64,000 nucleotides of DNA. Origin: a virus. A model generated the notes under the pieces. It was not told where the DNA came from. It did no database searches and was given only the letters and a program-made list of their open reading frames with translations. Numbering within the stretch: the first letter of the stretch is position 1; the number at the start of each line of letters is the position of its first letter. Made by a program: the position numbers and the translations under genes. Below are positions 15,481 to 38,387 of the stretch, piece by piece. The stretch is from IMG/VR virus record IMGVR_UViG_3300006931_000002, positions 1-64,000 of that record, one strand, 5' to 3'.

Positions 15481-15492
15481 CCCGTCTCTTTC

Positions 15493-15520
15493 AGCCCTCG
15501 GTCTCCGGCCGGGGGCTTTC
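15493..15520 (+). terminator. Hairpin after the lysin gene
   Basis: AGCCCTCGG...CCGGGGGCTTT. Confidence 0.55.
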
Positions 15521-15548
15521 TCATGTGCTCTCACGGAGGCCGCAACCC

Positions 15549-16820: not shown

Positions 16821-17479
16821 TGGGCCGGCGGCTCGGGGTGCTTCTGGCCTGCGTACTGCTGGCCGTGCTCGCGGTCGGCTGTGGCAGCTCGCCGCAGCCG
16901 TCGGCGCTGCCCGTCCGGCCGATCCGTAGCCCGACCGCAACCCCGGCACCCTCCCCAACTGCCCCATCCGGGTCGATTCCGGTCGCCGGGCCGATCCCGG
17001 CCGAAGGGCCAGGTGGCTGGCAGGTCACCTATCCGGCGCACTGTGTTGCCCGTGACAGCGACGAGCTGCCCGATCCGGCCTGTACACCGGGTGCGATCAA
17101 CCCGGATGTCACCCAGGCCAACATCCACCAGACGATCTGCGTGTCCGGGTGGACGGCGACAGTCCGCCCACCGCTGGCCTACACGTCGAAGGTCAAGGGC
17201 CTCGCGATCAGGGCGTACGGCTCCTACGCCGGCTCGTCGTTCGGCGCCTACGAACTCGACCACCTCGTGCCCCTCGAACTCGGCGGGGCGCCATGGGACA
17301 TCCGAAACCTGTGGGCGTCCACCCCGGCGTCGCCAAATCAGAAGGACTCGGTCGAATACGCGGCCCGGCAGGCCGTCTGCGCCGGGCGGATGACACTCGT
17401 CGCCGCCCAGCAGGCCATCGCCGTCAACTGGGTCGCGTTGGGCCACCGGCTCGGCGTCGCCGGCATTCCCGCTTCCTGA
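16820..17479 (+). CDS. Lipoprotein with HNH-like domain
   Basis: Lipobox LAVGC; LPDPACTPGA; YELDHLVPLELGG...NLW. Confidence 0.7.
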   Translation: MGRRLGVLLACVLLAVLAVGCGSSPQPSALPVRPIRSPTATPAPSPTAPSGSIPVAGPIPAEGPGGWQVTYPAHCVARDSDELPDPACTPGAINPDVTQANIHQTICVSGWTATVRPPLAYTSKVKGLAIRAYGSYAGSSFGAYELDHLVPLELGGAPWDIRNLWASTPASPNQKDSVEYAARQAVCAGRMTLVAAQQAIAVNWVALGHRLGVAGIPAS

Positions 17480-22695: not shown

Positions 22696-22773
22696 CGCTC
22701 CCCCTTTCTCGGCGCGACCTCGTCGAGGCGCACCCTGCCGCCTCCCCGGATGCCGGTGCTCGCCCATGCGTCC

Positions 22774-22820
22774 ACTCTACCGCAAGGCAAGCCGATTTGC
22801 CTAGTCGGTTCCGCTATCAT
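22774..22820. promoter_or_regulatory. Divergent promoters with inverted-repeat operator
   Basis: Minus-strand TAGAGT and plus-strand TATCAT -10 boxes; AGGCAA-N6-TTGCCT at 22785-22802. Confidence 0.55.
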
Positions 22821-22827
22821 TGAGAAT

Positions 22828-23067
22828 GTGACGACCACTCCCCCGCCGGACCCGAAGACAGCGACCCGCGAACGCCTCCAACGCATCGCGGAAACCCGGG
22901 CACGTCTCGACGCCGAACAGACCGAAGCCGTCCTTGATGCCGTCCGGGCAGGTTGGCTGCACCGCGAGGTTGCCAGCTTCCTGGGGGTGAGCCGGCAACG
23001 TGTCGGCCAGATCGTCACTGATGCACACGAGGCCATGGCGCCTCCCGACGTTGACCACGGAGCGTGA
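22828..23067 (+). CDS. Small HTH DNA-binding protein
   Basis: AVRAGWLHREVASFLGVSRQRVGQI; leaderless GTG. Confidence 0.75.
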   Translation: MTTTPPPDPKTATRERLQRIAETRARLDAEQTEAVLDAVRAGWLHREVASFLGVSRQRVGQIVTDAHEAMAPPDVDHGA

Positions 23068-23222
23068 CGAACAGCCCCTTCCGTGATCTGCCGCTGCCAT
23101 GCTGCCGTGGTGCTGCCGCACGCCCCCGTACGCGCGCGCGTGCGCGAGACGGTAGATCAACGGCAGCATCGCGGCAGAAGCACGCAGCGTCACACCCCTC
23201 CCGGTGGGGGAGGGGACGACGA

Positions 23223-25154
23223 TCATGCCGAGGGGAGGGCTGCGGTCCACACATAGCGCGTATCCCGACCCTGCCCAACCGACTCGGCCAGGCCGGCGCG
23301 CATCCACGGATGAACCAGGTCCTTCATCACCTTCGACCGGCCCCAGCCGGTCATTTCCTCCAACGCCTGCCGGGCCATACCCCCAGAAGGTGCTGCCTTT
23401 CGCATTGCCTCGCGGCACACTTCCTCCGCACGACTACCGGACAGCACAGGGCCCTTCGGAGCGTCCGGTACGACCACCGGCAGGATGATCCCCGGCCGTA
23501 CCGTCGGCAGGTCACGAACCTGCGCGATTTCGCCCTCAACGGTGGTATCCGAGACCATTGTTGGCGTAGGGTGGGCGATGGCCGCCTTCTGCTGGTCGAG
23601 GGCCTTTTCGGCTTCCGCCCATTCGGCATCCGGCCGGGCGTTGCACTCGGCCATCGCCTCGGCGATCACTGGCCTGTTGTCCTTCTCGACCCGGCGAGAT
23701 ACGACCGGTATTCCGCGCCGATGGCCGGGGGTTTCCGCGACGAACTGGCCCTTGTCGTCCATCGTCAGGAGTTCCACGCCGCCGCCGTTCAGCACCGATT
23801 CGGCGGCGCCCTCGCCCATCGCGAACTGGATACGGTCCTGAAGCATGCGGCGGAACCGCCACGACCACACCCCAGGGCCGTTCGTCACCTGCGCGATCAG
23901 AATTATTTTGATGCCCGCGGCGCCGGTCCGTAGCGCCATCTTCTGCAACCATTCGCCCAGTTCCTCGCCCTGGTTCGACGAGGCGAAGCGGGGGCCTTCC
24001 TCGATGAGCAGCACATACACTGGTTCGTCGGCGGACGGCTCCCACACCTGCCAGTCCCGGTCGGCCATCAGCCGTTCGCGGCGTAGCAGCAGATGCCAGA
24101 ACGTTTCCAGAAGACGCAGGAAGTCGGCTGGCTGGTCGATGTAGCGGAATACCGAGCCGGAGAAGAACCGGAAGTCGCGGCCCTGGGCGCCGTCAGCAAC
24201 AAGCCAGGCCAGGTCGGGGGCCTGCTGGTACAGCTCCATCAGGCGAAGCATCAGCTCGGACTTTCCGATCCGGGAAGCGCCCGCGACCAGCAGGTTTGTC
24301 GCCCCAACCTCCTGGTCATACATGACCAGGCCGTAAGGTTCGCTGTCCCGGTAGGGGCCGACCTTGCCCGGTTCACAGATCGACTCTGCGGGCTGCTGGG
24401 CGAGCAGGTCGAACGCCTTTCGGGGGTCCATTTCCTGGACGTGGAGTTCCCCGAGCCACAGGTAGCCGTCAGGGTCTGCGGTGAAGGTGACTTCGCCGGC
24501 TCGCCGTTCGAGCCGTGACGTCAGGTTGTTGAGCTGCTGGCTATCGAGGTTGAGCGTGTACCCGTGGGGGACTCGCAGACGGTAGGTGTGGCCGACTCCG
24601 CGGTCGTCGCGGATCGCATAGCAGTCGACATGAGGCATGCCCTGGGCCTCGGCCACCGCAGGCCATGCCGCCTTCCTTGCGGAGAGGAAGGCCTCCCGCT
24701 CCGCAGCCCTGCGGAGGTCGTCGCGGCGGGTCCGCAACGCCGGATGCGTAGCCAGGCGTACCGTGCCGGCGGCTGCGGCGACCGCGGTAAGCAGGCCCAC
24801 GCCTGCGAAGCCGAGTGCGGAGCCGGCTGCGGAGGCTGCTGCGAAGGCCGCCCAGATGACCAGCTCATTGCGGAGGGGGCTGTTGCGGACCGCAAAGTCG
24901 ACCGCAACCCAGCCCGCAACCGCAAGGAGGATCGCAACCCACCACAGTCCGGCGATGCGGAGCACCGCACCGCCCGCAACCGTGGTCACCGCAATCGCTG
25001 CGGGGATCGCAAAGGGCTTGCGGGACGGTGCGGAAGGGTTGCGGAGTGCGGTGCGGGGTTGCGGAGTGCGGTGCGGGGTTGCGGAGCCCGTCGCGGAGCT
25101 GGGTGCGGAGATGCGGACCAGCTCCGCACGTCCAGTCGAGCGGGCGGCGGCCAT
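23223..25154 (-). CDS. traB: TraB-like FtsK/SpoIIIE conjugative DNA translocase
   Basis: N-terminal TM segments; Walker A GASRIGKS; Walker B LLIEE; GAAGIKIILIAQ; C-terminal winged helix (RQALEEMTGWGRSKVMK...RAGLAE); AAAGGA RBS. Confidence 0.8.
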   Translation of the reverse strand: MAAARSTGRAELVRISAPSSATGSATPHRTPQPRTALRNPSAPSRKPFAIPAAIAVTTVAGGAVLRIAGLWWVAILLAVAGWVAVDFAVRNSPLRNELVIWAAFAAASAAGSALGFAGVGLLTAVAAAAGTVRLATHPALRTRRDDLRRAAEREAFLSARKAAWPAVAEAQGMPHVDCYAIRDDRGVGHTYRLRVPHGYTLNLDSQQLNNLTSRLERRAGEVTFTADPDGYLWLGELHVQEMDPRKAFDLLAQQPAESICEPGKVGPYRDSEPYGLVMYDQEVGATNLLVAGASRIGKSELMLRLMELYQQAPDLAWLVADGAQGRDFRFFSGSVFRYIDQPADFLRLLETFWHLLLRRERLMADRDWQVWEPSADEPVYVLLIEEGPRFASSNQGEELGEWLQKMALRTGAAGIKIILIAQVTNGPGVWSWRFRRMLQDRIQFAMGEGAAESVLNGGGVELLTMDDKGQFVAETPGHRRGIPVVSRRVEKDNRPVIAEAMAECNARPDAEWAEAEKALDQQKAAIAHPTPTMVSDTTVEGEIAQVRDLPTVRPGIILPVVVPDAPKGPVLSGSRAEEVCREAMRKAAPSGGMARQALEEMTGWGRSKVMKDLVHPWMRAGLAESVGQGRDTRYVWTAALPSA

Positions 25155-26332
25155 GGGGGTCCTTTCGTTACGGAGTGCGGAGGGGTGCGGACCGGCAGTG
25201 CGGAGGTTGCGGACCCTGTTGCGAGGTCAGGTGCCGATCCGCTGGGTGTCCTTCGAAAGGTCGGTGGTGAAGAACGTGTCGTGCAGCTCGAACAGGTTCT
25301 TCTCGGCGCGAAGGGCACTGGTGGCTGCGTTGGTGATCAGGTCGGCGCTCAGGCTGACCGCGCTGTGAACAGGCTTGGCGAGCCCGCGGCGGGCCGCTTC
25401 ATCGGCCGCGTATCCGATGCCGTCGGCGACCACGGTCAGAAACTCGGTGGTCCACATGTAGAGGGCGGCGACCTTCTCGCCCTTCGACAGGTCGACGTCT
25501 TGGATGCCCTTGGCTGCCTTGAGTAGCGCCTCGAAGCCGGGGTCCTGGAGGTGTTCACGCCAGTTCAGGTTGTAGGGGTGTGCGACGGCCATTGCGGTGC
25601 TCCTTGCGGGGTTCGATGCGGGCTGCGGACTGGTTGCGGAGGTGGTTGCGGACCCTGCTGCGGGATGCGGTGCGGAGGGCGCGGAGTCCGCAACCGGTGC
25701 GGAGGGGGGCGGTGCGTACGCATGCGGACGGCCCCACGTTGCGGAGCCTGTTGCGGAGTGCGGTGCGGAGGGCTCCGCAACGATGCGGGGCGTTGCGGAG
25801 CCGAACAGCCGGGTCCGCAGCATCCGCAGCAGGTCCGCAATCACGGCGACCGCCTCGACGGTGAACGGCGCTGCGGATGCGGGCGTCGGCCCGGTGGGGC
25901 GGCTGTACGTTGCGGACCCGGTTGCGGAGCCTGCGGGCTTGACGAATCTCAGTGCGGACCCGGGTGCGGGCCTGCGTCGGTTGCGTGCGGATACCGCAAC
26001 GGTGGTGCGGACGAACGCGGTCCCGCGGCGGGTGTTGCGGATGTTCGCACGGGCACGTCGCAGCGACGGCCGGGCCCGGTCCGCATGCCGCTCCGCAGCC
26101 TGCACGGTGGGCCGTAGCCGTGCGGAGCCGGCGACCTTGCTGCGGACCGCGGTTGCGGCCCTGCGACTCCGGCTGCGGACCCTTGCGGTCCACGCGGTGT
26201 AGATGGCGGGAGCAAACAGGCGGAGCAGCCACAAACCGAGGGCGACGGTTGCGGCGCCGACCGCGAGATCATGCACCCAGTCGGTGGGGGTGCGCGGCAG
26301 CGCGGGGATTGCGACGACGTCCACGGCTGCGG
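24656..26332. repeat. Dense TGCGG(A)/CCGCA repeat field, candidate clt/TRS locus
   Basis: About 55-60 TGCGG on plus and about 20 on minus (manual count); 20-bp tandem GGGTTGCGGAGTGCGGTGCG at 25036, 25056 and 25076 (partial). Confidence 0.9.
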
Positions 26333-27242
26333 CGGCGATCTGGGTGCTGATCGGCGGGGCAGGTGCCGGGGCTGGGTGCAGGTCGATGTGACTGTCGCGG
26401 AGGGCAGCGGAGGCGAGGATGTTGCGGACGTAGTTCTGTGTCTCCGGGAAGGGCGGGACGCCGTGATACCGGTTGACCGCCCCCTGTCCGGCGTTGTAGC
26501 CGGCCAACGCCAGGCCGATGTCGCCGCCGTTGGCACGGATCAGGTCGGCGATCATGTCGGCCATGGCGGGGATCGCGTCCGCCGGGTCGAGTGGATCTTT
26601 CCGCCCGTCGTTGTCGCCGTCCTCGCCGCGGGTTGCCCACGTCGTCGGCATGAACTGGGCGATGCCCACAGCGCCAGCAGGGGAGCTGATCGTCGGATCG
26701 AAACCCGACTCCTGCCATAGCAGGGCGCGCAGCAGATCCCGGGGGACACCGGTCCGCGTCGCCGCACGGTCGATGTAGTCGTTGACGCCGGGCGTGCCGG
26801 GGCGGATCGCCGTCTGGGCATGCCACTGGGCGAGCGGGGTGACGATCGTGCCCCAGGCGGCGCCTTTCGCCTCGACGACCTGCCCGCCGCCGACATACAT
26901 GCCGACGTGGCCCGGCTTCTCAGCTTCCGACCCGGAACGGAACACAAGATCGCCCGGTTGGAGGGCGGACGGAGACACCCAGCCGGCGGCGCCGATCTGG
27001 TCGGTGGTGACCCTCGGCAAGGCGATGCCCGCAGCCGCGTAGGCGTGCTGGACGAGGCTGGAGCAGTCCCACGAACTGGGTCCATTCGACCCGTATATGT
27101 AGGGTTTGCCGACCTGCGCCTGCGCGAACGCGACCACAGGTGCAACGTTCGGCGTGCCTGCGGAGGCGGGCGGCGTACATATGCCGGCAGTGGCGGTGGC
27201 CGCAACGACCACCGCCACCATGCGGGCGGGCAGACGGCTCAC
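25227..27242 (-). CDS. NlpC/P60 peptidase, SLT lytic transglycosylase, TM segment, repeat linker and TraA-like C-terminal domain
   Basis: Signal-like N-terminus; GKPYIYG, WDCSSLV, GHVGMY (NlpC/P60); WQESGF, GAVGIAQFMPTTW, LAGYNAG, ETQNYV (SLT); internal AAGGAG plus in-frame ATG at 25592. Confidence 0.85.
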   Translation of the reverse strand: MSRLPARMVAVVVAATATAGICTPPASAGTPNVAPVVAFAQAQVGKPYIYGSNGPSSWDCSSLVQHAYAAAGIALPRVTTDQIGAAGWVSPSALQPGDLVFRSGSEAEKPGHVGMYVGGGQVVEAKGAAWGTIVTPLAQWHAQTAIRPGTPGVNDYIDRAATRTGVPRDLLRALLWQESGFDPTISSPAGAVGIAQFMPTTWATRGEDGDNDGRKDPLDPADAIPAMADMIADLIRANGGDIGLALAGYNAGQGAVNRYHGVPPFPETQNYVRNILASAALRDSHIDLHPAPAPAPPISTQIAAAAVDVVAIPALPRTPTDWVHDLAVGAATVALGLWLLRLFAPAIYTAWTARVRSRSRRAATAVRSKVAGSARLRPTVQAAERHADRARPSLRRARANIRNTRRGTAFVRTTVAVSARNRRRPAPGSALRFVKPAGSATGSATYSRPTGPTPASAAPFTVEAVAVIADLLRMLRTRLFGSATPRIVAEPSAPHSATGSATWGRPHAYAPPPSAPVADSAPSAPHPAAGSATTSATSPQPASNPARSTAMAVAHPYNLNWREHLQDPGFEALLKAAKGIQDVDLSKGEKVAALYMWTTEFLTVVADGIGYAADEAARRGLAKPVHSAVSLSADLITNAATSALRAEKNLFELHDTFFTTDLSKDTQRIGT

Positions 27243-28312
27243 CCTGCCAGCTCCCGCGCTGCCTGTTCCATTTCCTCGCGGACTTCACGCTTCCGGCTGT
27301 CGATCGTCCGCGGCGACACCCCAAGCGCCTCAGCGGCGCGTTTGGTGAAACCTGGCTCCGACAGCGACCGGCCGGAGTTGACTTCCCGGCGAATCCACTC
27401 CCGCTGCGCTTCCCGTCGCACCTCGTCCGGGTCCTCTTTGACTGGGCCGGAGGCCAGTGGCGCGGGCACCTCCGCCGGGAGGGGTTCCAGCGCGGCGATC
27501 TGCGGCTGAGATTCGACTGCCCTCAGCGGGGTTGGGGCTGGAACCTCCTGTGGTGTTGAGGGCTGCGGCTCATCGAGGTCGACAGTCGCCCGGATGGGTG
27601 CCGTCGGCGCTGTGACCGCGTCCAGGGGTGGAAGGCCAGCAGTCGGCGCCGTCTTCTCGGCCACGCCTCCGAACAGTTCCGTGCCGGCCGGGGGTCTCCG
27701 CGACGCCTCCAACGCGAGCAACTGTACGGTCGCCTGATCCTCAACCCGGGCGACCTGACGGCGGACCGCGGCAACGGCCAACTGCGCGGACGCCCTCGAC
27801 GTCTCGGCCTCAACCCACTGGGCGTCCTCCGGGGACAGGGTTGGGCGGATCGCCCGGTTCAACGTCCACCACAGGGTTTTCGCGACGATCGAAACTGTTG
27901 ACCCGACGATGGCCATCGCCACACCGCCGACGCGGAGCCCTTCCAGGAGGATCGCGGTGACGGTGACGGCGAGCAGCGCCCAGCCGACACAGTCGACAAC
28001 CAGGCGCCGATTAGGCCGGTACCGGACGATGAACGACATGCCGAGCACAGCCAGCCAGGCAAGATCGAACACCGCGCCAGCGAGGTAGGCCGTCCATGTG
28101 CTTTCCAGCAGGTGCGCGATCGACACGGTCGACCAAGTGACCGAGATGAGAGTGAGGACCAGTACGAGGCCGCCCACCCCCTGGACTGCAATCGCGTCCA
28201 CGTCGCGGGGCAGCTTCGGAACAGCCACCTTGCGGACGCGGGTGATCGGGGCGGTGACCCCGTCGACCGTGTGAGTGGACTCGTACTTTTCGGTCTGGAT
28301 GCGGAACTTCAC
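27239..28312 (-). CDS. SpdB-like four-TM protein with coiled coil and C-terminal HTH
   Basis: Four hydrophobic segments (AGAVFDLAWL); RAAEALGVSPRTI HTH; adjacent to the traB block. Confidence 0.65.
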   Translation of the reverse strand: MKFRIQTEKYESTHTVDGVTAPITRVRKVAVPKLPRDVDAIAVQGVGGLVLVLTLISVTWSTVSIAHLLESTWTAYLAGAVFDLAWLAVLGMSFIVRYRPNRRLVVDCVGWALLAVTVTAILLEGLRVGGVAMAIVGSTVSIVAKTLWWTLNRAIRPTLSPEDAQWVEAETSRASAQLAVAAVRRQVARVEDQATVQLLALEASRRPPAGTELFGGVAEKTAPTAGLPPLDAVTAPTAPIRATVDLDEPQPSTPQEVPAPTPLRAVESQPQIAALEPLPAEVPAPLASGPVKEDPDEVRREAQREWIRREVNSGRSLSEPGFTKRAAEALGVSPRTIDSRKREVREEMEQAARELAG

Positions 28313-28530
28313 CGTCCACCATCCGAACCGGCCTGACGGCTCTCCTGGTCAGCCCAGTGGTTGAGCTGCCCCTTCCAAGTGTCGAGATGGCCATCGGCGC
28401 CGACCGCCATACAGAAGAAGGTGCCGGCAAGCGCGCAGGCGATCATCCACCGCAGGCCGACCCTGCGGGCGGCGAAGGCGAGGATGGCCACAGAACCGAC
28501 GGCGATCACGCCCACGATCAGCAGGGCCAT
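28309..28530 (-). CDS. Small two-TM membrane protein (Spd-like)
   Basis: GAGAGGAG RBS; hydrophobic. Confidence 0.6.
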   Translation of the reverse strand: MALLIVGVIAVGSVAILAFAARRVGLRWMIACALAGTFFCMAVGADGHLDTWKGQLNHWADQESRQAGSDGGR

Positions 28531-28546
28531 GGCTGGGTCTCCTCTC

Positions 28547-29062
28547 TCAGTGCAGGTGGGGGGCGACGACGTGGGTGAGGACAAACCAGAAGCCGGTTCC
28601 GGTTGTCGCCGTGCCGATGGCGACGGCTAGCAGGTGCTTCCACGAGTGCGACGCGGCGAGCGCGACATGCCCTGCGGTCCACAGGGCCAGAAGCAACGTG
28701 AACAGCGGCAGCGCTGCGACCAGCGCGACAATCAGGAAGATCGCCCACGCACCGAGGTGCGCGGGGACCTCGCCGGATGGCGCCTTCCACGGTGCCGGCG
28801 GTGGGGTAGCGAACTCCGGCCATGCCGGTGGGACGCTGTTCGCGACACTGCGGGACATCACCCGCAGTACCAAGTCACCTGGTTCGCGGCCACGTTCGAC
28901 GGTGACCGACAGGTCAACCGGGTAGACGGGTCGCGGGGCGACCGTCGTGGACGACTTCTTTCCCGCCGGGGCCTTGTCGCCCTTGCCGCTCGGGGTGGGT
29001 GCGGGCGGCGCCGACGGTCCCCGCATTCCAGGGATTACCACGGTGTCCGTGTCCGAGGCCAT
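28547..29062 (-). CDS. Membrane protein (Spd-like)
   Basis: Pro-rich N-terminus, C-terminal TM segments. Confidence 0.6.
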   Translation of the reverse strand: MASDTDTVVIPGMRGPSAPPAPTPSGKGDKAPAGKKSSTTVAPRPVYPVDLSVTVERGREPGDLVLRVMSRSVANSVPPAWPEFATPPPAPWKAPSGEVPAHLGAWAIFLIVALVAALPLFTLLLALWTAGHVALAASHSWKHLLAVAIGTATTGTGFWFVLTHVVAPHLH

Positions 29063-29346
29063 CAGCCGAGCACCCCCGCGGTGACGAACGCGGCGACGAA
29101 CAGGCCGAACGCAAGCACCGTCTGGCGCTTCCACCAGCCGGCGGGCTTGTCGCGGCGGAATCCGAGCGCGACAAGGCGGACGGTCGCCCAGCCTGCGGCG
29201 ATGAGCAGCAGGGAGACGAACATGCCGCCGTGGAGACGGTGGAAGACGGTCGCCAGGCCGATGACGGTCAGCGCGGCGGCGAACGCGAGAACGGACGGAG
29301 ACAGCCTGCGAGGGGTCGTGTTGGGGACGTTCGACGGCGGCTTCAT
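29062..29346 (-). CDS. Three-TM membrane protein
   Basis: Three hydrophobic segments; overlap coupling. Confidence 0.6.
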   Translation of the reverse strand: MKPPSNVPNTTPRRLSPSVLAFAAALTVIGLATVFHRLHGGMFVSLLLIAAGWATVRLVALGFRRDKPAGWWKRQTVLAFGLFVAAFVTAGVLG

Positions 29347-29759
29347 CGGGCGACCACCAGGACGGTGAGAAGCAGCATGGCCAGCGCTCCGGCGAGCGGC
29401 CGGGCGAACCAGAACCGGCCGACCCGCTGGGCCTTGACGAGCTGGACGCCGTAGAGAACGGCGGTCAGGGCGAGGCCGGCAGCGACGCCACGGTGCAAAC
29501 CCCAGTGGGCCATGGCGAACAGAAGGGCGAAGGCGAGGACGATCCGCGGCGTCCACCCCTCGACAGTGGCGCCGTGGAAACGGGCGACCACCCTGTCCTT
29601 CACGGTGCTGGTCGTGGACTGCGGTTCGACCGGGATGCCGTAGGGCGGGGTGCGGTCGGAGTCGGTGTAGGACGACATGCGGCCAGCGGGGTTGGTGCAG
29701 GCCGGCTCGTCGACGTAGTCGGAGCCGTCCCACACGTCGGGGTCAGCGGGAATGGACAT
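29343..29759 (-). CDS. Three-TM membrane protein
   Basis: Three hydrophobic segments; similar layout to 29062-29346. Confidence 0.6.
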   Translation of the reverse strand: MSIPADPDVWDGSDYVDEPACTNPAGRMSSYTDSDRTPPYGIPVEPQSTTSTVKDRVVARFHGATVEGWTPRIVLAFALLFAMAHWGLHRGVAAGLALTAVLYGVQLVKAQRVGRFWFARPLAGALAMLLLTVLVVAR

Positions 29760-29881
29760 CAACGCACCTTGAGGTAGATGAGGATCGCGACAGCGAGCGC
29801 GACGAGAACGGCGATGACGAGGTGGAAGGCCCAGCCATGAGGCTGTGGCTGGCGGGGATAGCCGTTCTGAGCGCTGGTCAC
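29759..29881 (-). CDS. 40-aa single-TM peptide (not in ORF track)
   Basis: MTSAQNG...FHLVIAVLVALAVAILIYLKVR*; overlaps both neighbours. Confidence 0.5.
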   Translation of the reverse strand: MTSAQNGYPRQPQPHGWAFHLVIAVLVALAVAILIYLKVR

Positions 29882-29960
29882 GAGCCGCCACCCTTAGAGC
29901 AGATCGAGTCGTGGTCGCCGAGAATCCGGCCACACTCGGAGCAGGCAAGATCGTCGTGGT

Positions 29961-30194
29961 TCATGGGGCGCCGTCCCGGCCGAAGTACTGGTCCGGGGTG
30001 ATCAGCTCGAACGGCTTGACGTGCCACGCCTCGCCGCTCTGACCGGTCACCTTGACGGTCTTCCGGTAGCGGGTACTGCCTTCGGGTTCGCACCGCCAGC
30101 AGTGGCATGCCGTGATGGTCAGCGGTCCGCCGATCGACGGGTTCCGGCCGTCGTAGTAGACCGTCTCGGCGACGGTGAGCGCGGGGCCGGTCAT
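29961..30194 (-). CDS. Hypothetical protein
   Basis: CHCWRC motif; ATGA overlap with the whiB-like gene. Confidence 0.55.
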   Translation of the reverse strand: MTGPALTVAETVYYDGRNPSIGGPLTITACHCWRCEPEGSTRYRKTVKVTGQSGEAWHVKPFELITPDQYFGRDGAP

Positions 30195-30562
30195 GCTGCT
30201 ACCGCCGTCCGGGGAGACGGCTGGTGCTCGCGGAGCAGGGCGCTGCGTTCCCGGTAGGTCAACCCGCCATAGACGCCCCGCTTCTCACCGGTTCTCAGCG
30301 CCCATCTCAGGCAGGGCAGCCGAACCGGGCAGCCATAGCAGACAGCTTTGGCGCGGCGGCTCTCGGCGGCCGAGCCGGATCGGGCGGGGACCATGTTGAC
30401 GGCATCGGCGACCTGGCAGGCGGCACGCTGCCGCCAGTGCGGGTCGAACGGCCGTTCGGACACGGTCAACGTTCGGACTCTGGGCGCACTGACGGCGCCC
30501 ATCTTCGAGGCTGCGGCCTCGTCGGGCGCGCGCAACGGCGCGCCCGGTGGCACGATCGCCAC
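30191..30562 (-). CDS. whiB: WhiB-family Fe-S transcription factor
   Basis: WRQRAAC...AKAVCYGCPVRLPCL...GVYGGLTYRER; AGGAGG RBS. Confidence 0.92.
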   Translation of the reverse strand: MAIVPPGAPLRAPDEAAASKMGAVSAPRVRTLTVSERPFDPHWRQRAACQVADAVNMVPARSGSAAESRRAKAVCYGCPVRLPCLRWALRTGEKRGVYGGLTYRERSALLREHQPSPRTAVAA

Positions 30563-30685
30563 TGGGTCTACCTCCTGCTAGCTCAGGGGGTTGGGCCAAG
30601 TCCTCTCGGGCATGGCTGGCAGGCCGTGTCCGAGGGGCACCCACCTGGCAGGGCGGGTGTGACCCGTATTTGGTTGTCGACCCTC

Positions 30686-30713
30686 ACAATAGCCGGGAAA
30701 TCCCTGCTGTCAA
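30686..30713 (-). promoter_or_regulatory. Consensus-like promoter for the whiB/transfer operon
   Basis: TTGACA-N16-TATTGT. Confidence 0.6.
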
Positions 30714-30825
30714 AACACATTTCACCCGACACGCCGTAGCACCCTGTTTTCCCAGCTAGACTCGCGTGATCACTATCCCCACTGTTTCGCCACACACACC
30801 ACCCACCACACCGGAAGGGCAGGGC

Positions 30826-31131
30826 ATGGCCCGAGGCAAGCACCACGTCTACGTCGACGACACCGCCTGGGACGGCGCCAAGGCCCGAGACCGGGAGGAC
30901 GGCCTGTCGCTGTCCCGCGCCGTGGAGACGTGGATCTGGGCCCGATGGAAGGCCCCCAAGGGGCTGTTCCGCCGGCTGCAACGCCAAGCCGAAGATGAGG
31001 GCTGCCATCCCGGGGAGGTGGTGCTACGGGCGTTGCGCCGCGAACTCGGCGACCCGCGGCCGGTCGCCGCGGAACCAGGGCCGGAACGTGGAGAAGCCGC
31101 CGACCCGAAGGCCGACGGCTCAGACGTGTAG
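30826..31131 (+). CDS. Tandem ribbon-helix-helix-like regulator
   Basis: HHVYVDDTAWDGAKARDREDGLSLSRAV, then RRLQRQAEDEGCHPGEVVLRAL. Confidence 0.65.
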   Translation: MARGKHHVYVDDTAWDGAKARDREDGLSLSRAVETWIWARWKAPKGLFRRLQRQAEDEGCHPGEVVLRALRRELGDPRPVAAEPGPERGEAADPKADGSDV

Positions 31132-31134
31132 GAG

Positions 31135-31527
31135 TCAGAACGCGGCGACTACTGCTTTGGCCGCGTCTTCAAGCGACGACCCGTCGTAGAGGAAACTCCC
31201 GTCCTCGCCTTGGACAACCCAGCGGCTATGGTCCGCGCTGACGATCACCCGGATCGTGTCGACCTCGAAGACGCCCATCCGGGGCTGGCCGATCAGATGG
31301 TCGTTGTCCGGGTTCCATCCGGCCGCGTGCAGCGCTGCGACGAGCTGGGCGTGGAGGGCGAGGTCAGCGGTCCGCCAGGCGTCGGCGACGGCGAGCCGGC
31401 GGAGGTGGAACGGGATAGTTGACCCGCAGTCTGGGTGGCTGCACTCCCACTTCACCATCGACGGCAGCGAGCCAGACTTCTTCACAGTCCAGCCGGGCGG
31501 AGGGTTACGGCGAGGGTCGGCGGCCAC
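31135..31527 (-). CDS. Hypothetical protein
   Basis: AAGGAG RBS; protein-like composition. Confidence 0.55.
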   Translation of the reverse strand: MAADPRRNPPPGWTVKKSGSLPSMVKWECSHPDCGSTIPFHLRRLAVADAWRTADLALHAQLVAALHAAGWNPDNDHLIGQPRMGVFEVDTIRVIVSADHSRWVVQGEDGSFLYDGSSLEDAAKAVVAAF

Positions 31528-31529
31528 GT

Positions 31530-32783
31530 CTACTCCTTCGTCTCGGTGGTGGCGGGCTGGTCGGGGGTAGCTGGGCCGCGCAGTACGTAGGAGATCAGGC
31601 CGTGGTCGATCACCCACCGGTCTCCGTGGTCGATGAGCCGGGCGTCGCGGTCACGGTCGTACAGGGCCCATGCTTCGGCCGGGTCGCAGGGTTTCGGCTC
31701 TTGCCGCAGGTGGTGGTGCTGTTCGCAGGTGGCGGTGGCGGCGCGGAGTTCGGCGGCTCGTTTGGTGCCCCGGCGGATTGCCTTCGGCCCAGTGGTGGCA
31801 ACCTTCCGTCCGCCGGAGGGACGGAGGATGGCTGTGGTTTCGTCTGGGGCGCGGCGGCCGGTCACCTCGCCATAGGGCAGGGTGCGGGTCGACCCGGGCA
31901 GGTTGCCGACGGCCATCTCGATGGCCTTGGCCATACCAGAATTGCGGATGTTGATCGGGCAGGGCACCGTCAGCGTCTTCGCGTTGACCCGGAGGACGGG
32001 CATCCAGCCAAGGCCGCCGCCCACCCAGTCGCCCGGGGTGAAATCGTCCGGTCCCCACACCTTCACGCCGCTGGCCTTGGCCGCTTCGATCTGGCCGCGC
32101 CAGTAGCCGATCTGGTCGTCGAGTTGTGCGGCCATGCCGGTCAGCCGGTCGTGGTAGTCGCCGCCTTCGCTGGCGCCGGCCAGACGGCGGCCGATGTCGC
32201 GGCGTTCCGCTTCGAGGCGTTCGACACGCCGAATCGTGGTGTGCAGGTTTTCGCGGTGCGACTGGGTAGCTTCTGCGGCGTGGGCCCGGTTCTGCCAATG
32301 CTCGGCTTTGCGCACTTCGGTGGCCGACCGGTCGAGGGCGGCGCTGAGGCGTTCCCGGTCGCGTCGGGCGCGCCGCTCCGAATGGTGTCCGACGAGGATG
32401 GGCTGCCCGAACGGGATGCCGTCGCTGATGAGCTGGGCCCGGTTGTAGGCCGCATCGGCACGGGTCGCAGCGTTGGTGGCGTAACCCTCGTACCGGTCGG
32501 CCCGGTCGGCGGCGCGTTCGGCGCGTTCGGCCTCGACGGTGGCGGTGTCGCGGGGCGTGTCGTCGATGATGACTGTGACGTCGAAACCGGCGGCGCGTAG
32601 CGCGTCGGCGGCCTGGTTGATGATGTGCCGGTCGGCCATCCGGTCGCGTGAGCCGCGGATACGCCACGCGCCGTAGCGCCAGGTGAACCGGTGGGCTTTG
32701 AGAATGTCACCCGATCCGTCGCCCTTGCGGGTGCCGGCTACTTCCGTGCCGTCGGCATGCGTGTGGGTGATCGTGAGCGTCAT
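31530..32783 (-). CDS. DUF3560 domain protein
   Basis: IPFGQPILVGHHSERRARR signature; AAAGGAG RBS. Confidence 0.9.
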   Translation of the reverse strand: MTLTITHTHADGTEVAGTRKGDGSGDILKAHRFTWRYGAWRIRGSRDRMADRHIINQAADALRAAGFDVTVIIDDTPRDTATVEAERAERAADRADRYEGYATNAATRADAAYNRAQLISDGIPFGQPILVGHHSERRARRDRERLSAALDRSATEVRKAEHWQNRAHAAEATQSHRENLHTTIRRVERLEAERRDIGRRLAGASEGGDYHDRLTGMAAQLDDQIGYWRGQIEAAKASGVKVWGPDDFTPGDWVGGGLGWMPVLRVNAKTLTVPCPINIRNSGMAKAIEMAVGNLPGSTRTLPYGEVTGRRAPDETTAILRPSGGRKVATTGPKAIRRGTKRAAELRAATATCEQHHHLRQEPKPCDPAEAWALYDRDRDARLIDHGDRWVIDHGLISYVLRGPATPDQPATTETKE

Positions 32784-32835
32784 GGCGCTCCTTTCGGGTG
32801 GTGCTGGCCCGGGTCGGGGGGCCGGCGACGGAGAG

Positions 32836-33099
32836 TCAGATCGGGCGGCGGATACGCGCGTCATAGCCGTGCCACCAGACCTCGCGGGCGGGCAACGAGG
32901 TGACGTGCGAGACGAGTCGCATGAGCGGGGCGCCACCGTGGAGCCGAGTCCCGGTTGGCTCTGACGCGACCGTGGCGACGGTGACGCCGTTGCGGGTGCG
33001 CTCGGCGTCACGGCCGGCGGTGAACCGCTGGCCGTCCGGGGTGAGGGAGAAGACCGTGCCGCACACGATTTCGCGGGCCGGCATCTTGCTGTGGGTCAT
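32836..33099 (-). CDS. Hypothetical protein
   Basis: GAAGGG RBS. Confidence 0.55.
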   Translation of the reverse strand: MTHSKMPAREIVCGTVFSLTPDGQRFTAGRDAERTRNGVTVATVASEPTGTRLHGGAPLMRLVSHVTSLPAREVWWHGYDARIRRPI

Positions 33100-36687: not shown

Positions 36688-36900
36688 ATCATGCCGTCGT
36701 GGCGGACTTGACATCCTCTCCGCCCTGAAGGGCGAAGATTCCCGCCTGCTACGCCGCTGTCGGCGTCAGCTTCGGGTGGGTTCCCGCTTCGCCGCGCTGT
36801 GCCGGCACGGATGCCGGTCTTACCTGCGCTCCACGGGCAGACACCGCCAGTCCGGCGGCCAAAGCGACGTTGACCGCCGCGTTCACATCCCGGTCGTGCA
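36688..36900 (-). ncRNA. Predicted TnpB omega-RNA (reRNA) with flank-derived guide
   Basis: Expected from TnpB biology: overlaps tnpB 3' end and right end; guide GUCCGCCACGACGGCAUG; boundaries approximate. Confidence 0.6.
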
Positions 36901-37948
36901 CCGACCCGCAGGCCGCACACGTCCACTCGCGGACGGCCAGCGGTTTCGGACCGTCCTTCACCCCGCAGGCCGAACAGGTCTGCGAGGTCGGCTCGAACCG
37001 GCCGATCTTCACGAAACGGCGCCCATACAACGCCGCCTTGTACTCCAACATGGCGACGAACGCTGACCATCCGGCGTCGTGCACTGACTTGGCCAGCCGG
37101 GTACGCGCGAGCCCCTTCACCGCCAGATCCTCCACAGCGACCGCTTGGTTCTCGCGGATCAGCCTCGTGGACAACTGGTGATGAAACTCGCGCCGCGCGT
37201 CGGCGACCTTGGCGTGCGCACGGGCCACCTTCACCCGAGCCTTGGCCCGGTTCGCCGAGCCCTTCTGTTTGCGGGACAGGTCCCGCTGTGCCTTCTTGAG
37301 CTTCTTCTCCGCTCGGCGTAGGAACTTCGGCGACTCGACCTTCGTGCCGTCTGACAGGACCGCGAAGTGCGTCAGCCCCAGGTCGATACCCACCTCGGAT
37401 GCGGCCGCCGGCAACGCCTCCGGGTCGGTCTCCACGACGAAGCTCGCGAAGTACCGACCCGCACTGTCCTTGACCACCGTCACCGATGACGGGACCGACG
37501 GCAGGCGCCGCGACCAGCGCACCTCCACATAGCCGATCTTCGGCAGGCGCAGTTTTCCATCCCTGACCGACCATCCGGCGTTCGCCGTGAACCGGACCGC
37601 CTGTCGCGTGTCCCGCTTCGACTTGAACCGGGGAGCGCCCATCCGGGGCCGCTTCCCCTTCAGTCCGTCGAAGAAGTTCCGGTAGGCCACATCCAAATCC
37701 CGGAGCGACTGTTGCAGCACCACCGCTGACACGTCGCCGAGCCAGGCTCGCTCGGGCGTCTTCTTCGCCTCGGTGATGACCAGCTTCGACAGGTCGCCGG
37801 ACTTCGGAAACGGCAGCCCATCCGCGCGGGCGGTCTCGCGGACGCGAAGCGCGTCGTTGTAGACCACCCGCGCACACCCGAACGTCCGGGCCAACGCCTT
37901 CTGCTGGCCGACGGTCGGGTACAGGCGGAAGCTGTACCGAAGCTGCAC
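36749..37948 (-). CDS. tnpB: TnpB RNA-guided endonuclease
   Basis: YSFRLYPT, FGCARVVYN; RuvC GIDLG / VEDL / DRDVNAA; CSACG...CAACG zinc finger. Confidence 0.97.
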   Translation of the reverse strand: MQLRYSFRLYPTVGQQKALARTFGCARVVYNDALRVRETARADGLPFPKSGDLSKLVITEAKKTPERAWLGDVSAVVLQQSLRDLDVAYRNFFDGLKGKRPRMGAPRFKSKRDTRQAVRFTANAGWSVRDGKLRLPKIGYVEVRWSRRLPSVPSSVTVVKDSAGRYFASFVVETDPEALPAAASEVGIDLGLTHFAVLSDGTKVESPKFLRRAEKKLKKAQRDLSRKQKGSANRAKARVKVARAHAKVADARREFHHQLSTRLIRENQAVAVEDLAVKGLARTRLAKSVHDAGWSAFVAMLEYKAALYGRRFVKIGRFEPTSQTCSACGVKDGPKPLAVREWTCAACGSVHDRDVNAAVNVALAAGLAVSARGAQVRPASVPAQRGEAGTHPKLTPTAA

Positions 37949-37970
37949 GATCACAGTCTAGCATTGGCTT

Positions 37971-38387
37971 ATGGCCAAAGATCCCGACATTCGCACTGGC
38001 AGGCACTGCGTTTTCGCGCTGCACGCGCACTTGGTCTTCGTCACCAAGTACCGGCACCGCATCTTCGACGACCAGCACCTGACCCGCCTGGAAGAAATCA
38101 TGCAGGCGGTGTGCGCCGACTTCGAGGCCGAGTTGATCGAGTTCAACGGCGAACGCGACCACGTCCATCTGCTGGTCAACTTCCCGCCAAAGGTCGCACT
38201 GTCCCGACTGGTCAACAGCCTGAAAGGCGTCTCCTCCCGACGGCTGCGCCAGGAGTACCCCGAGCTGGTCCGGCACTACTGGCGCACCCAGCGACTCTGG
38301 GCCGGGTCCTACTTCGCGGGCTCTGTTGGTGGCGCCCCGCTTGACGTCCTCCGCCGGTACATCGAGGAGCAGACCCGTCCGGTCTAG
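37971..38387 (+). CDS. tnpA: TnpA Y1 HUH transposase
   Basis: HLVFVTKYR, DHVHLL (HUH), LKGVSSR, YIEEQ. Confidence 0.97.
   Translation: MAKDPDIRTGRHCVFALHAHLVFVTKYRHRIFDDQHLTRLEEIMQAVCADFEAELIEFNGERDHVHLLVNFPPKVALSRLVNSLKGVSSRRLRQEYPELVRHYWRTQRLWAGSYFAGSVGGAPLDVLRRYIEEQTRPV

What the first reader, a model, noticed from the sequence alone, without database searches (positions are those of the whole stretch)
23223..30713. Candidate conjugative phage: a TraB-type transfer operon inside a tailed, integrating phage
Seen: one leftward operon running from a promoter through whiB-like, five small membrane genes, an SpdB-like 4TM-coil-HTH gene and a wall-hydrolase/TraA-like fusion to a TM + FtsK ATPase + winged-helix gene, with a cis repeat field. 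It is flanked on both sides by ordinary phage early genes, with no integrase, relaxase or T4SS genes at its borders. Established: in mycelial actinomycetes one FtsK-like TraB moves double-stranded plasmid or AICE DNA by binding 8-bp clt repeats, helped by Spd proteins. The Streptomyces plasmid-phage pZL12 is a partial precedent. Inference: this integrase-bearing phage can spread by virions and also cell to cell or through hyphal cross-walls, bypassing receptors.
Basis: partly seen in the sequence, partly recalled or inferred. Interest (0 to 1): 0.9.

Follow-up and report, generated by a model that had tools for sequence, protein, structure and literature searches.

The report
Phage-borne TraB-type DNA pump module
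A complete 115-kb tailed phage from rhizosphere soil, probably of Frankia-like filamentous actinomycetes, carries as an old part of its genome the kind of DNA pump, membrane partner and docking-repeat array that Streptomyces plasmids use to push double-stranded DNA between hyphae, so it may also spread without virus particles, which is untested.

Summary
One leftward operon (30713 to 23223) runs from a sigma-70-like promoter through whiB, six small genes (five with membrane segments), a 4TM+HTH protein, a secreted NlpC/P60+SLT wall hydrolase with a membrane anchor, and a 4TM + FtsK-motor + winged-helix ATPase.

The ATPase family is rare (10 clusters in 1.8 billion proteins). It branches among plasmid TraB proteins, not with chromosomal FtsK or EccC.

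An 8-mer, (C/G)TCCGCA(A/C)C, occurs 48 times in 24678-26428. It is the strongest k-mer cluster in the genome. A collinear sister phage has an unrelated 8-mer (CACCACAC) at the same place, beside an ATPase only 31% identical. That pump/site co-variation is what TraB-clt systems show.

The 4TM+HTH protein matches pIJ101 SpdB by profile comparison. "TraA-like" is not supported. "Integrating" rests only on two tyrosine recombinases.

Transfer itself is untested. The block is syntenic in the sister phage and has no att repeats, relaxase, VirB4 or Par genes.

Precedents exist: the conjugative plasmid-phage pZL12, SpdB2 homologues in phiC31 and VWB, and "FtsK-like" genes in many Streptomyces phages. 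This scan has noted similar modules on other DNA (160 notes, at least 130 genomes). It is a new variant of a known kind.

The parts
30686..30713 (-). sigma-70-like promoter TTGACA-16-TATTGT at the head of the operon
   Evidence: It is the only promoter-like match in 22700-31300. This is a consensus match only.
30191..30562 (-). WhiB-like transcription factor, 123 aa, first gene
   Evidence: Pfam Whib 1.2e-19 and phrog_14459 2e-20. An AGGAGG-type site lies before the GTG start.
29961..30194 (-). 77-aa Cys-rich soluble protein; its start overlaps the whiB stop
   Evidence: Codon-position GC frame. No hydrophobic segment. No family hit.
29759..29881 (-). 40-aa single-pass membrane peptide
   Evidence: Frame plot and a hydrophobic segment at residues 14-40.
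29343..29762 (-). about 138-aa protein with two C-terminal membrane segments
   Evidence: Frame plot. The start at 29759/29762 has an upstream AAGG. TM segments at 89-107 and 113-135.
29062..29346 (-). 94-aa protein with about three membrane segments
   Evidence: Frame plot. The ATG at 29346 overlaps the upstream stop.
28547..29062 (-). about 171-aa protein, Pro/Arg-rich N-terminus and C-terminal membrane segment(s)
   Evidence: Frame plot. ATG at 29062. TM at about residues 121-162 of the longer reading.
28309..28584 (-). 73-91-aa protein with two membrane segments
   Evidence: Frame plot. Alternative start at 28530 with a GAGGAG site.
27239..28312 (-). SpdB-like 357-aa protein: four membrane segments, helical middle, C-terminal HTH-like tail
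   Evidence: The family profile against pIJ101 SpdB gives hhalign probability 92.8%, E 3.9e-7 over 108 columns. phrog_35187 4e-31. Homologues are mostly in Frankia, Parafrankia and Streptomyces. Pfam DUF2637 is not matched.
25227..27242 (-). 671-aa wall hydrolase: signal-like N-terminus, NlpC/P60, SLT, one membrane anchor, Arg/Ala/Pro-rich linker that carries the DNA repeats, 120-aa helical C-terminal domain of unknown family
   Evidence: Pfam NlpC_P60 1.9e-19 and SLT 1.6e-21. TM at 325-347. The linker loses the codon GC pattern. 47% identical to the syntenic gene of the sister phage. An internal ATG at 25592 with AAGGAG could give the C-terminal domain on its own.
24678..26428 (.). clt-like repeat field: 48 copies of TCCGCA, consensus (C/G)TCCGCA(A/C)C, 38 in gene sense and 10 inverted. 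It has two blocks, the hydrolase linker and the intergenic spacer plus ATPase 5' end, with a perfect 20-bp tandem at 25036-25086.
   Evidence: It is the top k-mer cluster of the genome. The sister phage has CACCACAC at the same place.
23223..25154 (-). TraB-type DNA translocase, 643 aa: four membrane helices, FtsK-motor fold (Walker A GASRIGKS, Walker B LLIEE), C-terminal winged helix
   Evidence: AlphaFold model and Foldseek: FtsK motor 8e-15. Winged-helix hits for residues 565-643. Family profile against PDB FtsK 3.7e-10. Tree. NCBIfam TraB hits in relatives.

Best explanation
The operon is a TraB-clt-Spd type double-stranded-DNA translocation module that belongs to this phage lineage.

Proposed working, with the status of each step:
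1. Shown by sequence and model: the 643-aa protein is a membrane-anchored FtsK-type motor with a C-terminal winged helix.
2. Inferred from co-variation: the winged helix docks the motor on the roughly 48 polar copies of (C/G)TCCGCA(A/C)C that flank its own start codon.
3. Inferred: the motor then pumps the phage's double-stranded genome through a membrane and wall passage.
4. Homology shown, role inferred: the SpdB-like 4TM+HTH protein and the five small membrane proteins form or line that passage.
5. Domains shown, role inferred: the membrane-anchored NlpC/P60+SLT hydrolase opens the peptidoglycan locally. Its cytoplasmic tail sits next to the pump.

The most likely outcome is movement of phage DNA across hyphal cross-walls into neighbouring compartments, and possibly into touching hyphae, without virions. 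Septal spreading is more likely than true mating.
For: Pump identity:
- The FtsK-motor fold is the best PDB match (8e-15). The C-terminal 79 residues match only winged-helix DNA binders.
- In an ML tree the family (100% support) lies in a clade with four PGAP-named Streptomyces plasmid TraB proteins, including pWTY27. Chromosomal FtsK is split off by a 100% branch and EccC lies outside.
- NCBIfam TraB is the leading hit for 4 of 11 family members and 51 of 53 nearest neighbours.

Cis site:
- It is the strongest k-mer cluster in the genome (47 of 131 TCCGCA within 1.5 kb). None of 100 shuffles reach the window count.
- It is polar, 38 to 10.
- It is written over a gene segment that has lost its codon GC pattern in both phages.
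- In the collinear sister phage the same position holds 16 of 19 genome copies of the unrelated CACCACAC, next to an ATPase only 31% identical, while structural genes are 60-95% identical.
- A third phage (G002) has ACGGGGAA clustered at the 3' end of its ATPase gene.
- Published clt loci are such repeats: pJV1 nine 9-bp repeats, pWTY27 four 7-bp repeats, and pSVH1 8-bp repeats read by helix alpha-3 of the winged helix (PMC3583192).

Partners:
- The SpdB profile match is 92.8%. DUF2637 (SpdB2-type) proteins with an HTH tail lie just upstream in the two other phages.
- Overlapping stops and starts resemble spd operons (PMC4447253).

Precedent:
- pZL12 is both phage and conjugative plasmid (cited in PMC3583192 and PMC4487206).
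- Spd homologues in phiC31 and VWB were proposed to spread phage DNA (PMC4447253).
Against: - No functional data exist. Neither DNA binding nor transfer was tested.
- P0001 itself does not reach NCBIfam TraB at E 0.01, and the curated cut-off of 800 bits is far away.
- Clade support with plasmid TraB is moderate (SH-aLRT 85, quick LG+G4 search), and the sister relation is unresolved.
- Most neighbour proteins come from metagenomes of unknown context, so 'TraB-like' neighbours may themselves be phage genes.
- The field has about 48 copies over 1.7 kb, inside genes and at the 5' end. That is far larger and differently placed than plasmid clt loci (4-9 copies, 3' of tra).
- A wall hydrolase is not part of classical TraB systems.
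- The host is only inferred from homologue names (Frankia, Protofrankia).
- A lytic phage gains little from moving naked DNA unless recipients are alive. The phage's lifestyle is unknown.
Confidence: 0.5

Rival explanations
1. Segregation device. The pump and its polar repeat array act like FtsK-KOPS or SpoIIIE-SRS. They clear or load replicating phage or prophage DNA at closing septa, so that each hyphal compartment or spore keeps a copy. There is no transfer to other cells.
For: The motor fold is FtsK. The repeats are polar, 38:10 and 23:5, as KOPS are. No ParA or ParB is encoded, so an extrachromosomal prophage would need another way to be inherited. Family members lie on separate contigs of about 100 kb in Frankia isolate assemblies.
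Against: KOPS-type guides are spread over a replicon, not piled into 1.7 kb. The family groups with plasmid TraB, not chromosomal FtsK. The Spd-like partner and the wall hydrolase point to passage through a wall, which segregation at an open septum does not need.
Confidence: 0.2
2. Envelope remodelling or exclusion module. The membrane proteins, hydrolase and ATPase change the host envelope, for example for superinfection exclusion, a block to rival plasmids or phages, or host takeover. The repeat field is an operator array for the WhiB or HTH proteins of the operon.
For: The operon opens with a WhiB regulator and holds an HTH-tailed membrane protein. PHROGs files phage FtsK-like proteins under 'moron / host takeover'. 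The module is the most divergent part between sister phages, as expected for conflict genes.
Against: An operator array of 48 sites inside two coding regions, downstream of most of the operon, has no regulatory logic. The motif changes together with the winged-helix ATPase. The HTH-tailed partner is also replaced, by a different family, in the sister phage. So the data cannot yet say which protein reads the array, but a motor with a DNA-binding domain is the simplest reader.
Confidence: 0.13
3. Passenger element. The block is a plasmid- or AICE-derived cassette that landed in this phage recently and serves its own spread, not the phage's.
For: All its recognisable parts have plasmid or AICE relatives. 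An Intrasporangium chromosome has FtsK-like, WhiB-like and NlpC/P60 genes together.
Against: The hydrolase-ATPase pair sits at the same place in a collinear sister phage with conserved flanks. There are no border direct repeats beyond chance. No integrase, Rep, relaxase or VirB4 lies in or beside it. GC is 0.687 against 0.671 for the genome. No deletion form was seen in four metagenome runs; contig data only.
Confidence: 0.05
4. Entry aid. After a first part of the 115-kb genome is injected, the early-made pump binds the array and pulls in the rest, a T5-like second-step transfer.
For: The genome is large, the operon is early-looking, and a sequence-specific motor sits in the membrane.
Against: The module lies about 45-50 kb from the terminase/portal region where genome ends usually lie, so it would not enter first. 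Nothing comparable is known for siphophages of actinomycetes. Spd-like partners and the hydrolase are not explained.
Confidence: 0.04

Closest known systems
TraB-clt-Spd transfer and spreading regions of Streptomyces plasmids (pSVH1, pJV1, pWTY27; pIJ101 Tra/SpdB)
   Same: A single membrane-anchored FtsK-type motor with a C-terminal winged helix. A nearby cluster of 7-9-bp repeats whose sequence is specific to each element. A polytopic Spd membrane protein and small membrane proteins in a translationally coupled operon. No relaxase or T4SS (PMC4447253, PMC3583192).
   Different: The ATPase is far below the NCBIfam TraB cut-off. The array is about 48 copies over 1.7 kb, overprinted on two genes at the 5' side, not 4-9 copies 3' of tra. 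There is no TraA homologue and no GntR-type TraR/Kor; a WhiB gene leads instead. A secreted NlpC/P60+SLT hydrolase is built in. The replicon is a 115-kb tailed phage.
Streptomyces plasmid-phage pZL12 / phiZL12 (Zhong et al. 2010, J Bacteriol 192:3747, as cited in PMC3583192 and PMC4487206)
   Same: One replicon that makes tailed virions and also has a tra gene. [quoted passage not shown]
   Different: pZL12 is a ParA/ParB plasmid prophage (PMC4487206). This phage and its two relatives have no ParA or ParB but carry tyrosine recombinases. The ATPase had no tblastn match in the phage or plasmid collections at 1e-5. I could not read the pZL12 paper or sequence here.
'FtsK-like DNA translocase' genes of cultured Streptomyces phages (cluster BG/Woodruffvirus YDN12, TP1604, Geonosis; 186-kb Satis group)
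   Same: TraB/Tra-type pumps inside tailed actinophage genomes. YDN12 gp71 is 43% identical to pIJ101 Tra over 82% of its length, has a winged helix, and is preceded by an HTH-tailed protein.
   Different: They belong to the pIJ101-Tra clade, which is separate from this family in the tree. There is no hydrolase fusion. The papers I could read treat them only as FtsK-like, possibly used in replication (PMC11536984; bioRxiv 10.1101/2024.02.16.580700). A possible CCGTTCC cluster before the YDN12 gene was seen only in a 9-kb locus.
Peptidoglycan hydrolases of Gram-positive conjugation systems (bifunctional, membrane-anchored; from my own knowledge: CwlT of ICEBs1, PrgK of pCF10)
   Same: Two wall-cutting domains (glycosidase plus NlpC/P60 or CHAP peptidase) on one membrane-tethered protein, encoded inside a DNA-transfer operon.
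   Different: Those serve relaxase/T4SS single-strand transfer, which is absent here. The cytoplasmic linker with DNA repeats and the C-terminal domain have no counterpart.

Membership tests
TraB (actinomycete plasmid transfer protein, NCBIfam NF041214) | FtsK/HerA-type P-loop motor domain | tested here: met
   The family profile hits the PDB FtsK motor at 3.7e-10. The Foldseek top hits are FtsK motor structures at 8e-15. Walker A and B are conserved.
TraB (actinomycete plasmid transfer protein, NCBIfam NF041214) | N-terminal membrane anchor | tested here: met
   Four hydrophobic helices at residues 49-136 in the model and the hydropathy scan.
TraB (actinomycete plasmid transfer protein, NCBIfam NF041214) | [quoted passage not shown] | tested here: met
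   The fold only was tested. H-H-H-beta-beta with pLDDT 85-90. All top Foldseek hits are winged-helix regulators, best E 3e-3, TM 0.6-0.69. DNA reading was not tested.
TraB (actinomycete plasmid transfer protein, NCBIfam NF041214) | Score over the curated model cut-off (800 bits) | tested here: not met
   P0001 has no hit at E 0.01, and none in the six-frame genome search at E 10. Four of 11 relatives hit weakly, best 9.7e-14.
TraB (actinomycete plasmid transfer protein, NCBIfam NF041214) | Branches with plasmid TraB rather than chromosomal FtsK or T7SS EccC | tested here: met
   ML tree of 70 proteins. The family plus four named TraB proteins lie in one clade (SH-aLRT 85). FtsK is separated by a 100% branch. 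This was a quick search and the deep order is unresolved.
TraB (actinomycete plasmid transfer protein, NCBIfam NF041214) | Required for conjugal transfer of its replicon | not testable with these tools
   Needs matings with deletion mutants.
[quoted passage not shown] | Local cluster of short direct (and some inverted) repeats next to the tra gene | tested here: met
   48 TCCGCA sites in 24678-26428, with 24 of the window's 30 TGCGGASC sites lying there. No shuffle reaches the count.
[quoted passage not shown] | Repeat sequence specific to the cognate pump | tested here: met
   In silico only. The sister phage has CACCACAC at the same place beside a 31%-identical ATPase. A third phage has ACGGGGAA at its ATPase's 3' end.
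[quoted passage not shown] | Needed in cis for transfer; bound by the pump | not testable with these tools
   Needs EMSA or footprinting and mobilisation assays.
SpdB / SpdB2 spread proteins | Polytopic membrane protein homologous to pIJ101 SpdB or to DUF2637 (SpdB2 type) | tested here: inconclusive
   hhalign against pIJ101 SpdB gives 92.8%, E 3.9e-7 over the membrane part. Against the pWTY27 DUF2637 protein it gives only 29%, and Pfam DUF2637 is not matched. The equivalent genes of the other two phages do match DUF2637 (8e-4 and 4e-8).
TraA (plasmid transfer protein TraA, gene before traB in pWTY27-type plasmids) | Sequence similarity of the hydrolase C-terminal domain to TraA | tested here: not met
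   No NCBIfam hit at E 0.1. BLASTP against pWTY27 TraA gives E 16. No stand-alone homologues of 66-212 aa. Only the position before the pump gene is alike.
Chromosomal FtsK/SpoIIIE | Groups with cellular FtsK; matches the FtsK equivalog model | tested here: not met
   PRK10263 hits 1 of 11 family members at 0.0017. Pfam FtsK_SpoIIIE is not matched by P0001. It lies on the other side of a 100% branch.
Relaxase/T4SS conjugation | Relaxase and VirB4-type ATPase present | tested here: not met
   Pfam Relaxase PF03432 and AAA_10 PF12846 give no match in the six-frame genome search. Other relaxase families were not searched.
Plasmid-prophage (pZL12, P1/N15 style) | ParA/ParB partition genes | tested here: not met
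   No ParB_N or AAA_31 match in this phage or its two relatives.

The most novel reading that the evidence does not exclude
A whole lineage of roughly 100-115-kb tailed phages of Frankia-like root and soil actinomycetes, for which I know of no isolated phage, routinely moves its genome between hyphal compartments or cells as naked double-stranded DNA. It uses its own TraB-type pump, a wall hydrolase tethered to the pump, and a 48-copy docking array overprinted on the pump's neighbouring genes. Pump and array co-evolve fast enough to isolate sister phages from each other. Virions and conjugation-like spread would then be two regular transmission routes of one virus.
Probability: 0.3. Interest if true: 0.85.

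Novelty: new variant of a known kind. Interest (0 to 1): 0.62.

Why it matters
If the pump moves phage DNA, infection of filamentous actinomycetes would not be limited by receptors or by cross-walls. Plaque spread, lysogen spread and gene flow in soil and root-nodule bacteria would need a second, virion-free term.

The pump/array motif swap between sister phages gives a direct handle on how TraB-type motors choose their DNA. Two natural pump-site pairs are available for swap experiments.

The hydrolase with a cytoplasmic tail beside the pump suggests how the still unknown wall passage of Streptomyces-type conjugation could be opened.

The field also shows a DNA signal being written over coding sequence, which reshapes a protein linker.

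On the practical side, the many 'FtsK-like DNA translocase' annotations in actinophages deserve a second look.

Tried and rejected
Searches that found nothing:
- tblastn of the ATPase against the phage and plasmid collections at 1e-5.
- blastn of the block against phages.
- tblastn of the 357-aa protein against phages.
- phmmer of the ATPase against PDB.

Other attempts:
So the Frankia isolate contigs that carry family members could not be read, and integrated versus free state stays unknown.
- The genome-contig scan gave only one distant Intrasporangium locus.
- The metagenome scan gave 27 distant loci at 22-28% identity. Their k-mer clusters were too weak on short contigs to use.
- The first tree run with the mixture model did not finish. 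The LG+G4 quick tree was used instead.
- TraA likeness was rejected.
- The sister phage's 301-aa protein does not match the SpdB-like profile. It is DUF2637-like instead.
- SCP2 and the pZL12 paper were not held.
- Sequencing runs: no RNA holder is listed. All runs laid were contigs, so nothing can be said on expression. Parts without cover in runs X2-X4 are not evidence.
- Considered and dropped: a type VII secretion ATPase (single motor domain, winged helix, DNA array) and the lysis endolysin (the real lysis cassette is at 14386-17479).

Full report
WHAT THE DNA IS.
The window is the first 64 kb of a 115,477-bp IMG/VR virus record. Its ends overlap by 110 bp, so it is a circular assembly or a short terminal repeat.

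It is a real tailed phage:
- tail tube (881-2104), tape measure (3306-6575) and beta-helix tail proteins
- a GH25 lysin (14386-15480)
- DnaB and a second helicase
- outside the window, a portal (92872-95004), Rad52 and endonuclease VII

Two tyrosine recombinases lie at about 81-83.5 kb. No ParA, ParB, VirB4-type ATPase or MobP relaxase is encoded.

The same DNA occurs in rhizosphere, soil and root metagenomes of several studies.

Homologues of the module's proteins carry names from Frankia, Protofrankia, Parafrankia and Streptomyces. Some lie on contigs of 101-108 kb in Frankia isolate assemblies. A Frankia-like filamentous host is therefore an inference, not a finding.

THE OBSERVATION.
Codon-position GC and start-site inspection give one tightly packed leftward operon:
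- a promoter-like site TTGACA-16-TATTGT at 30713-30686, the only one in 8.6 kb
- WhiB
- a 77-aa soluble Cys-rich protein
- five small proteins with one to three hydrophobic segments each
- a 357-aa protein with four membrane segments and an HTH-like tail
- a 671-aa protein with a signal-like N-terminus, NlpC/P60 and SLT domains, one membrane anchor, a 200-residue Arg/Ala/Pro/Ser linker and a 120-residue helical C-terminal domain
- a 643-aa ATPase

Most stops overlap the next start, as in plasmid spd operons (PMC4447253).

THE ATPASE.
Sequence searches were at first nearly blank. Pfam gave only AAA_22 at 0.006, phrog_1358 'FtsK/SpoIIIE-like' scored 1.4e-8, and nothing matched in PDB, phages or plasmids.

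An exhaustive HMMER search of 1.84 billion representatives found only ten close clusters. After those came weak hits from 5e-11 downwards.

A profile of the family hits the FtsK motor in PDB at 3.7e-10 and TcpA at 0.004. The AlphaFold model (mean pLDDT 74, motor 85-94) shows four N-terminal membrane helices, a motor whose best Foldseek matches are FtsK structures (8e-15, then TcpA and EccC), and a C-terminal three-helix plus hairpin unit. Folded alone, that unit matches only winged-helix DNA binders such as IscR, CymR, RsrR, ArsR and MarR (TM 0.6-0.69, best E 3e-3).

NCBIfam's TraB model is the leading family for 4 of 11 members (best 1e-13) and 51 of 53 nearest neighbours (best 1e-91). The FtsK model hits 1 of 11. 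The query itself hits nothing, and all scores are far below the 800-bit cut-off.

I built a maximum-likelihood tree of 70 proteins. The family is monophyletic (100) and lies in a clade (85) with four PGAP-named Streptomyces plasmid TraB proteins, among them that of the experimentally studied pWTY27. E. coli and Intrasporangium FtsK sit behind a 100% branch, and EccC domain 1 lies outside. pIJ101 Tra groups separately with phage YDN12 gp71 and Satis gp143.

The protein is nevertheless not a member of TraB in the narrow, model-defined sense.

THE REPEAT FIELD.
TCCGCA (TGCGGA on the plus strand) occurs 131 times in the genome, and 47 of these lie within 1.5 kb from 24678. It is the highest-scoring local k-mer cluster of the whole genome at k = 6, 7 and 8.

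TGCGGASC occurs 30 times in the window against 10.6 +/- 3.0 in shuffles, and 24 of the 30 lie in 24698-26181.

The consensus in gene sense is (C/G)TCCGCA(A/C)C. Thirty-eight sites are in gene sense and ten are inverted.

The field has two blocks. One fills the linker of the hydrolase gene. The other covers the intergenic spacer and the first 150 codons of the ATPase. The hydrolase's conserved C-terminal domain lies between them and is free of sites.

In the linker the usual GC pattern of codon positions is lost (GC2 0.75 against GC3 0.78, compared with 0.43-0.57 against 0.84-0.87 in the flanking domains). The frame still stays open. The DNA signal therefore dominates the sequence and shows up in the protein as GSAT-type repeats.

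THE COMPARATIVE TEST.
A second complete IMG/VR genome (G001, 115,125 bp) is collinear with this one. Sixty-five of 163 ORFs match, with structural proteins 60-95% identical.

The hydrolase-ATPase pair is at the syntenic place but is only 47% and 31% identical.

The strongest k-mer cluster of G001's whole genome is CACCACAC. Sixteen of its 19 copies lie in the hydrolase linker, the spacer and the ATPase 5' end. That is the same two-block layout, again polar (23:5), but with an unrelated word.

A third, more distant phage (G002, 103 kb) has ACGGGGAA clustered (8 of 13 copies) at the 3' end of its ATPase gene, the classical clt position.

In a 27-kb contig of a further relative seen in one metagenome, the flanks and the hydrolase N-terminus align but the ATPase region does not.

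A site that stays in place while its word changes with the adjoining DNA-binding motor is the behaviour described for TraB and its recognition repeats. Published examples are pSVH1 (8-bp repeats read by helix alpha-3 of the winged helix), pJV1 (nine 9-bp repeats) and pWTY27 (four 7-bp repeats) (PMC3583192). This is the main new support. It remains correlation: the HTH-tailed membrane protein upstream is also replaced between the phages.

THE PARTNERS.
The 357-aa family aligns with pIJ101 SpdB at 92.8% probability (E 3.9e-7) over the membrane part. It aligns only weakly with the DUF2637 protein of pWTY27.

The equivalent genes of G001 and G002 are different proteins with the same build, a membrane domain plus an HTH tail. 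Both match DUF2637, the SpdB2-type family, at 8e-4 and 4e-8.

The hydrolase's C-terminal domain has no detectable likeness to plasmid TraA or to anything else. It shares only TraA's position before the pump gene.

IS IT A SEPARATE ELEMENT?
- It is syntenic in G001.
- Border repeats are no more than chance.
- Its GC is similar to the genome's.
- No recombinase, Rep or relaxase lies at its borders.

All of these speak against a recent insertion.

WHAT IS KNOWN.
[quoted passage not shown] It has ParA and ParB (PMC4487206).
- tblastn with pIJ101 Tra finds 43-45% identical proteins over 80% of its length in cluster BG Streptomyces phages, and weaker ones in 186-kb phages. All are annotated 'FtsK-like DNA translocase'.
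- The phage papers I could read mention these only in passing (PMC11536984; bioRxiv 10.1101/2024.02.16.580700).
- This scan has itself logged about 160 notes of TraB/clt-like modules in phage genomes from at least 130 genomes. Those are unchecked AI notes, but they show the theme recurs.

VERDICT.
The module is best read as a TraB-clt-Spd type DNA translocation system that is part of the phage. About 0.8 for that identity in the working-like sense.

That it moves the phage genome between compartments or cells is plausible and has a precedent, but it is untested. About 0.5.

New here are:
- a rare, divergent pump family in large Frankia-associated phages
- a built-in tethered wall hydrolase
- the size and overprinted position of the array
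- the clean motif swap between sister phages

It is a new variant of a known kind.

Noticed in passing
window 36749-37954 (-), with 37971-38387 (+): A TnpB/IS605 OrfB-type gene (OrfB_IS605 1.5e-31, Cas12f1-like TNB 2e-24) sits among the early genes. It has no counterpart in the sister phage G001.
   Followed up: no
window 25036-25086: A perfect 2.5-copy 20-bp tandem (GGGTTGCGGAGTGCGGTGCG) lies inside the repeat field. The public Logan contigs of the source run break exactly here, so assemblies of such phages may fragment at their arrays.
   Followed up: partly
window about 25700-25760 and G001 about 31240-31300: A short peptide GRPHAYAPPP(S/N) is conserved in the otherwise unalignable, repeat-laden hydrolase linkers of both phages. 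It may be a docking peptide.
   Followed up: no
L019 (Streptomyces phage YDN12, 47520-56528): gp71 'FtsK-like DNA translocase' is 43% identical to pIJ101 Tra. A MutT/Nudix gene and an HTH-tailed 346-aa protein lie upstream, as in AICEs. All six CCGTTCC copies in the 9-kb locus lie just before or at the gene start.
   Followed up: partly
G002 (IMGVR_UViG_3300044693_000261) 83870-85900: The strongest k-mer cluster of this third phage (CTGTCCGC / CGCGGACA, about 10 of 22 copies) lies far from its ATPase. Its role is unknown; it could be an origin or an operator array.
   Followed up: no
window 31530-33011 (-): A 493-aa protein with DUF3560 (3e-31) lies directly upstream of the operon's divergent region. 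DUF6011, DUF4326 and SLOG-like genes follow. All are unexplained early genes.
   Followed up: no
L069 (plasmid pWTY27) 10642-12102: The conjugative plasmid pWTY27 carries a 'phage major capsid protein' gene two genes after traB. Its authors already remarked on this. It is further sign of traffic between TraB plasmids and phages.
   Followed up: no
window 15525-16820 (+): A subtilase/S8-like protease (weak Pfam hit, 2e-7) sits between the lysin and the putative holin genes. It is 62% identical in the sister phage.
   Followed up: no
L005 (Intrasporangium zincisolvens NZ_JAWIIL010000010.1, 105840-126367): A chromosomal region holds an FtsK-like 506-aa gene, a WhiB-like gene and an NlpC/P60 gene together. 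It is probably an integrated conjugative element with the same three ingredients as the phage operon.
   Followed up: partly
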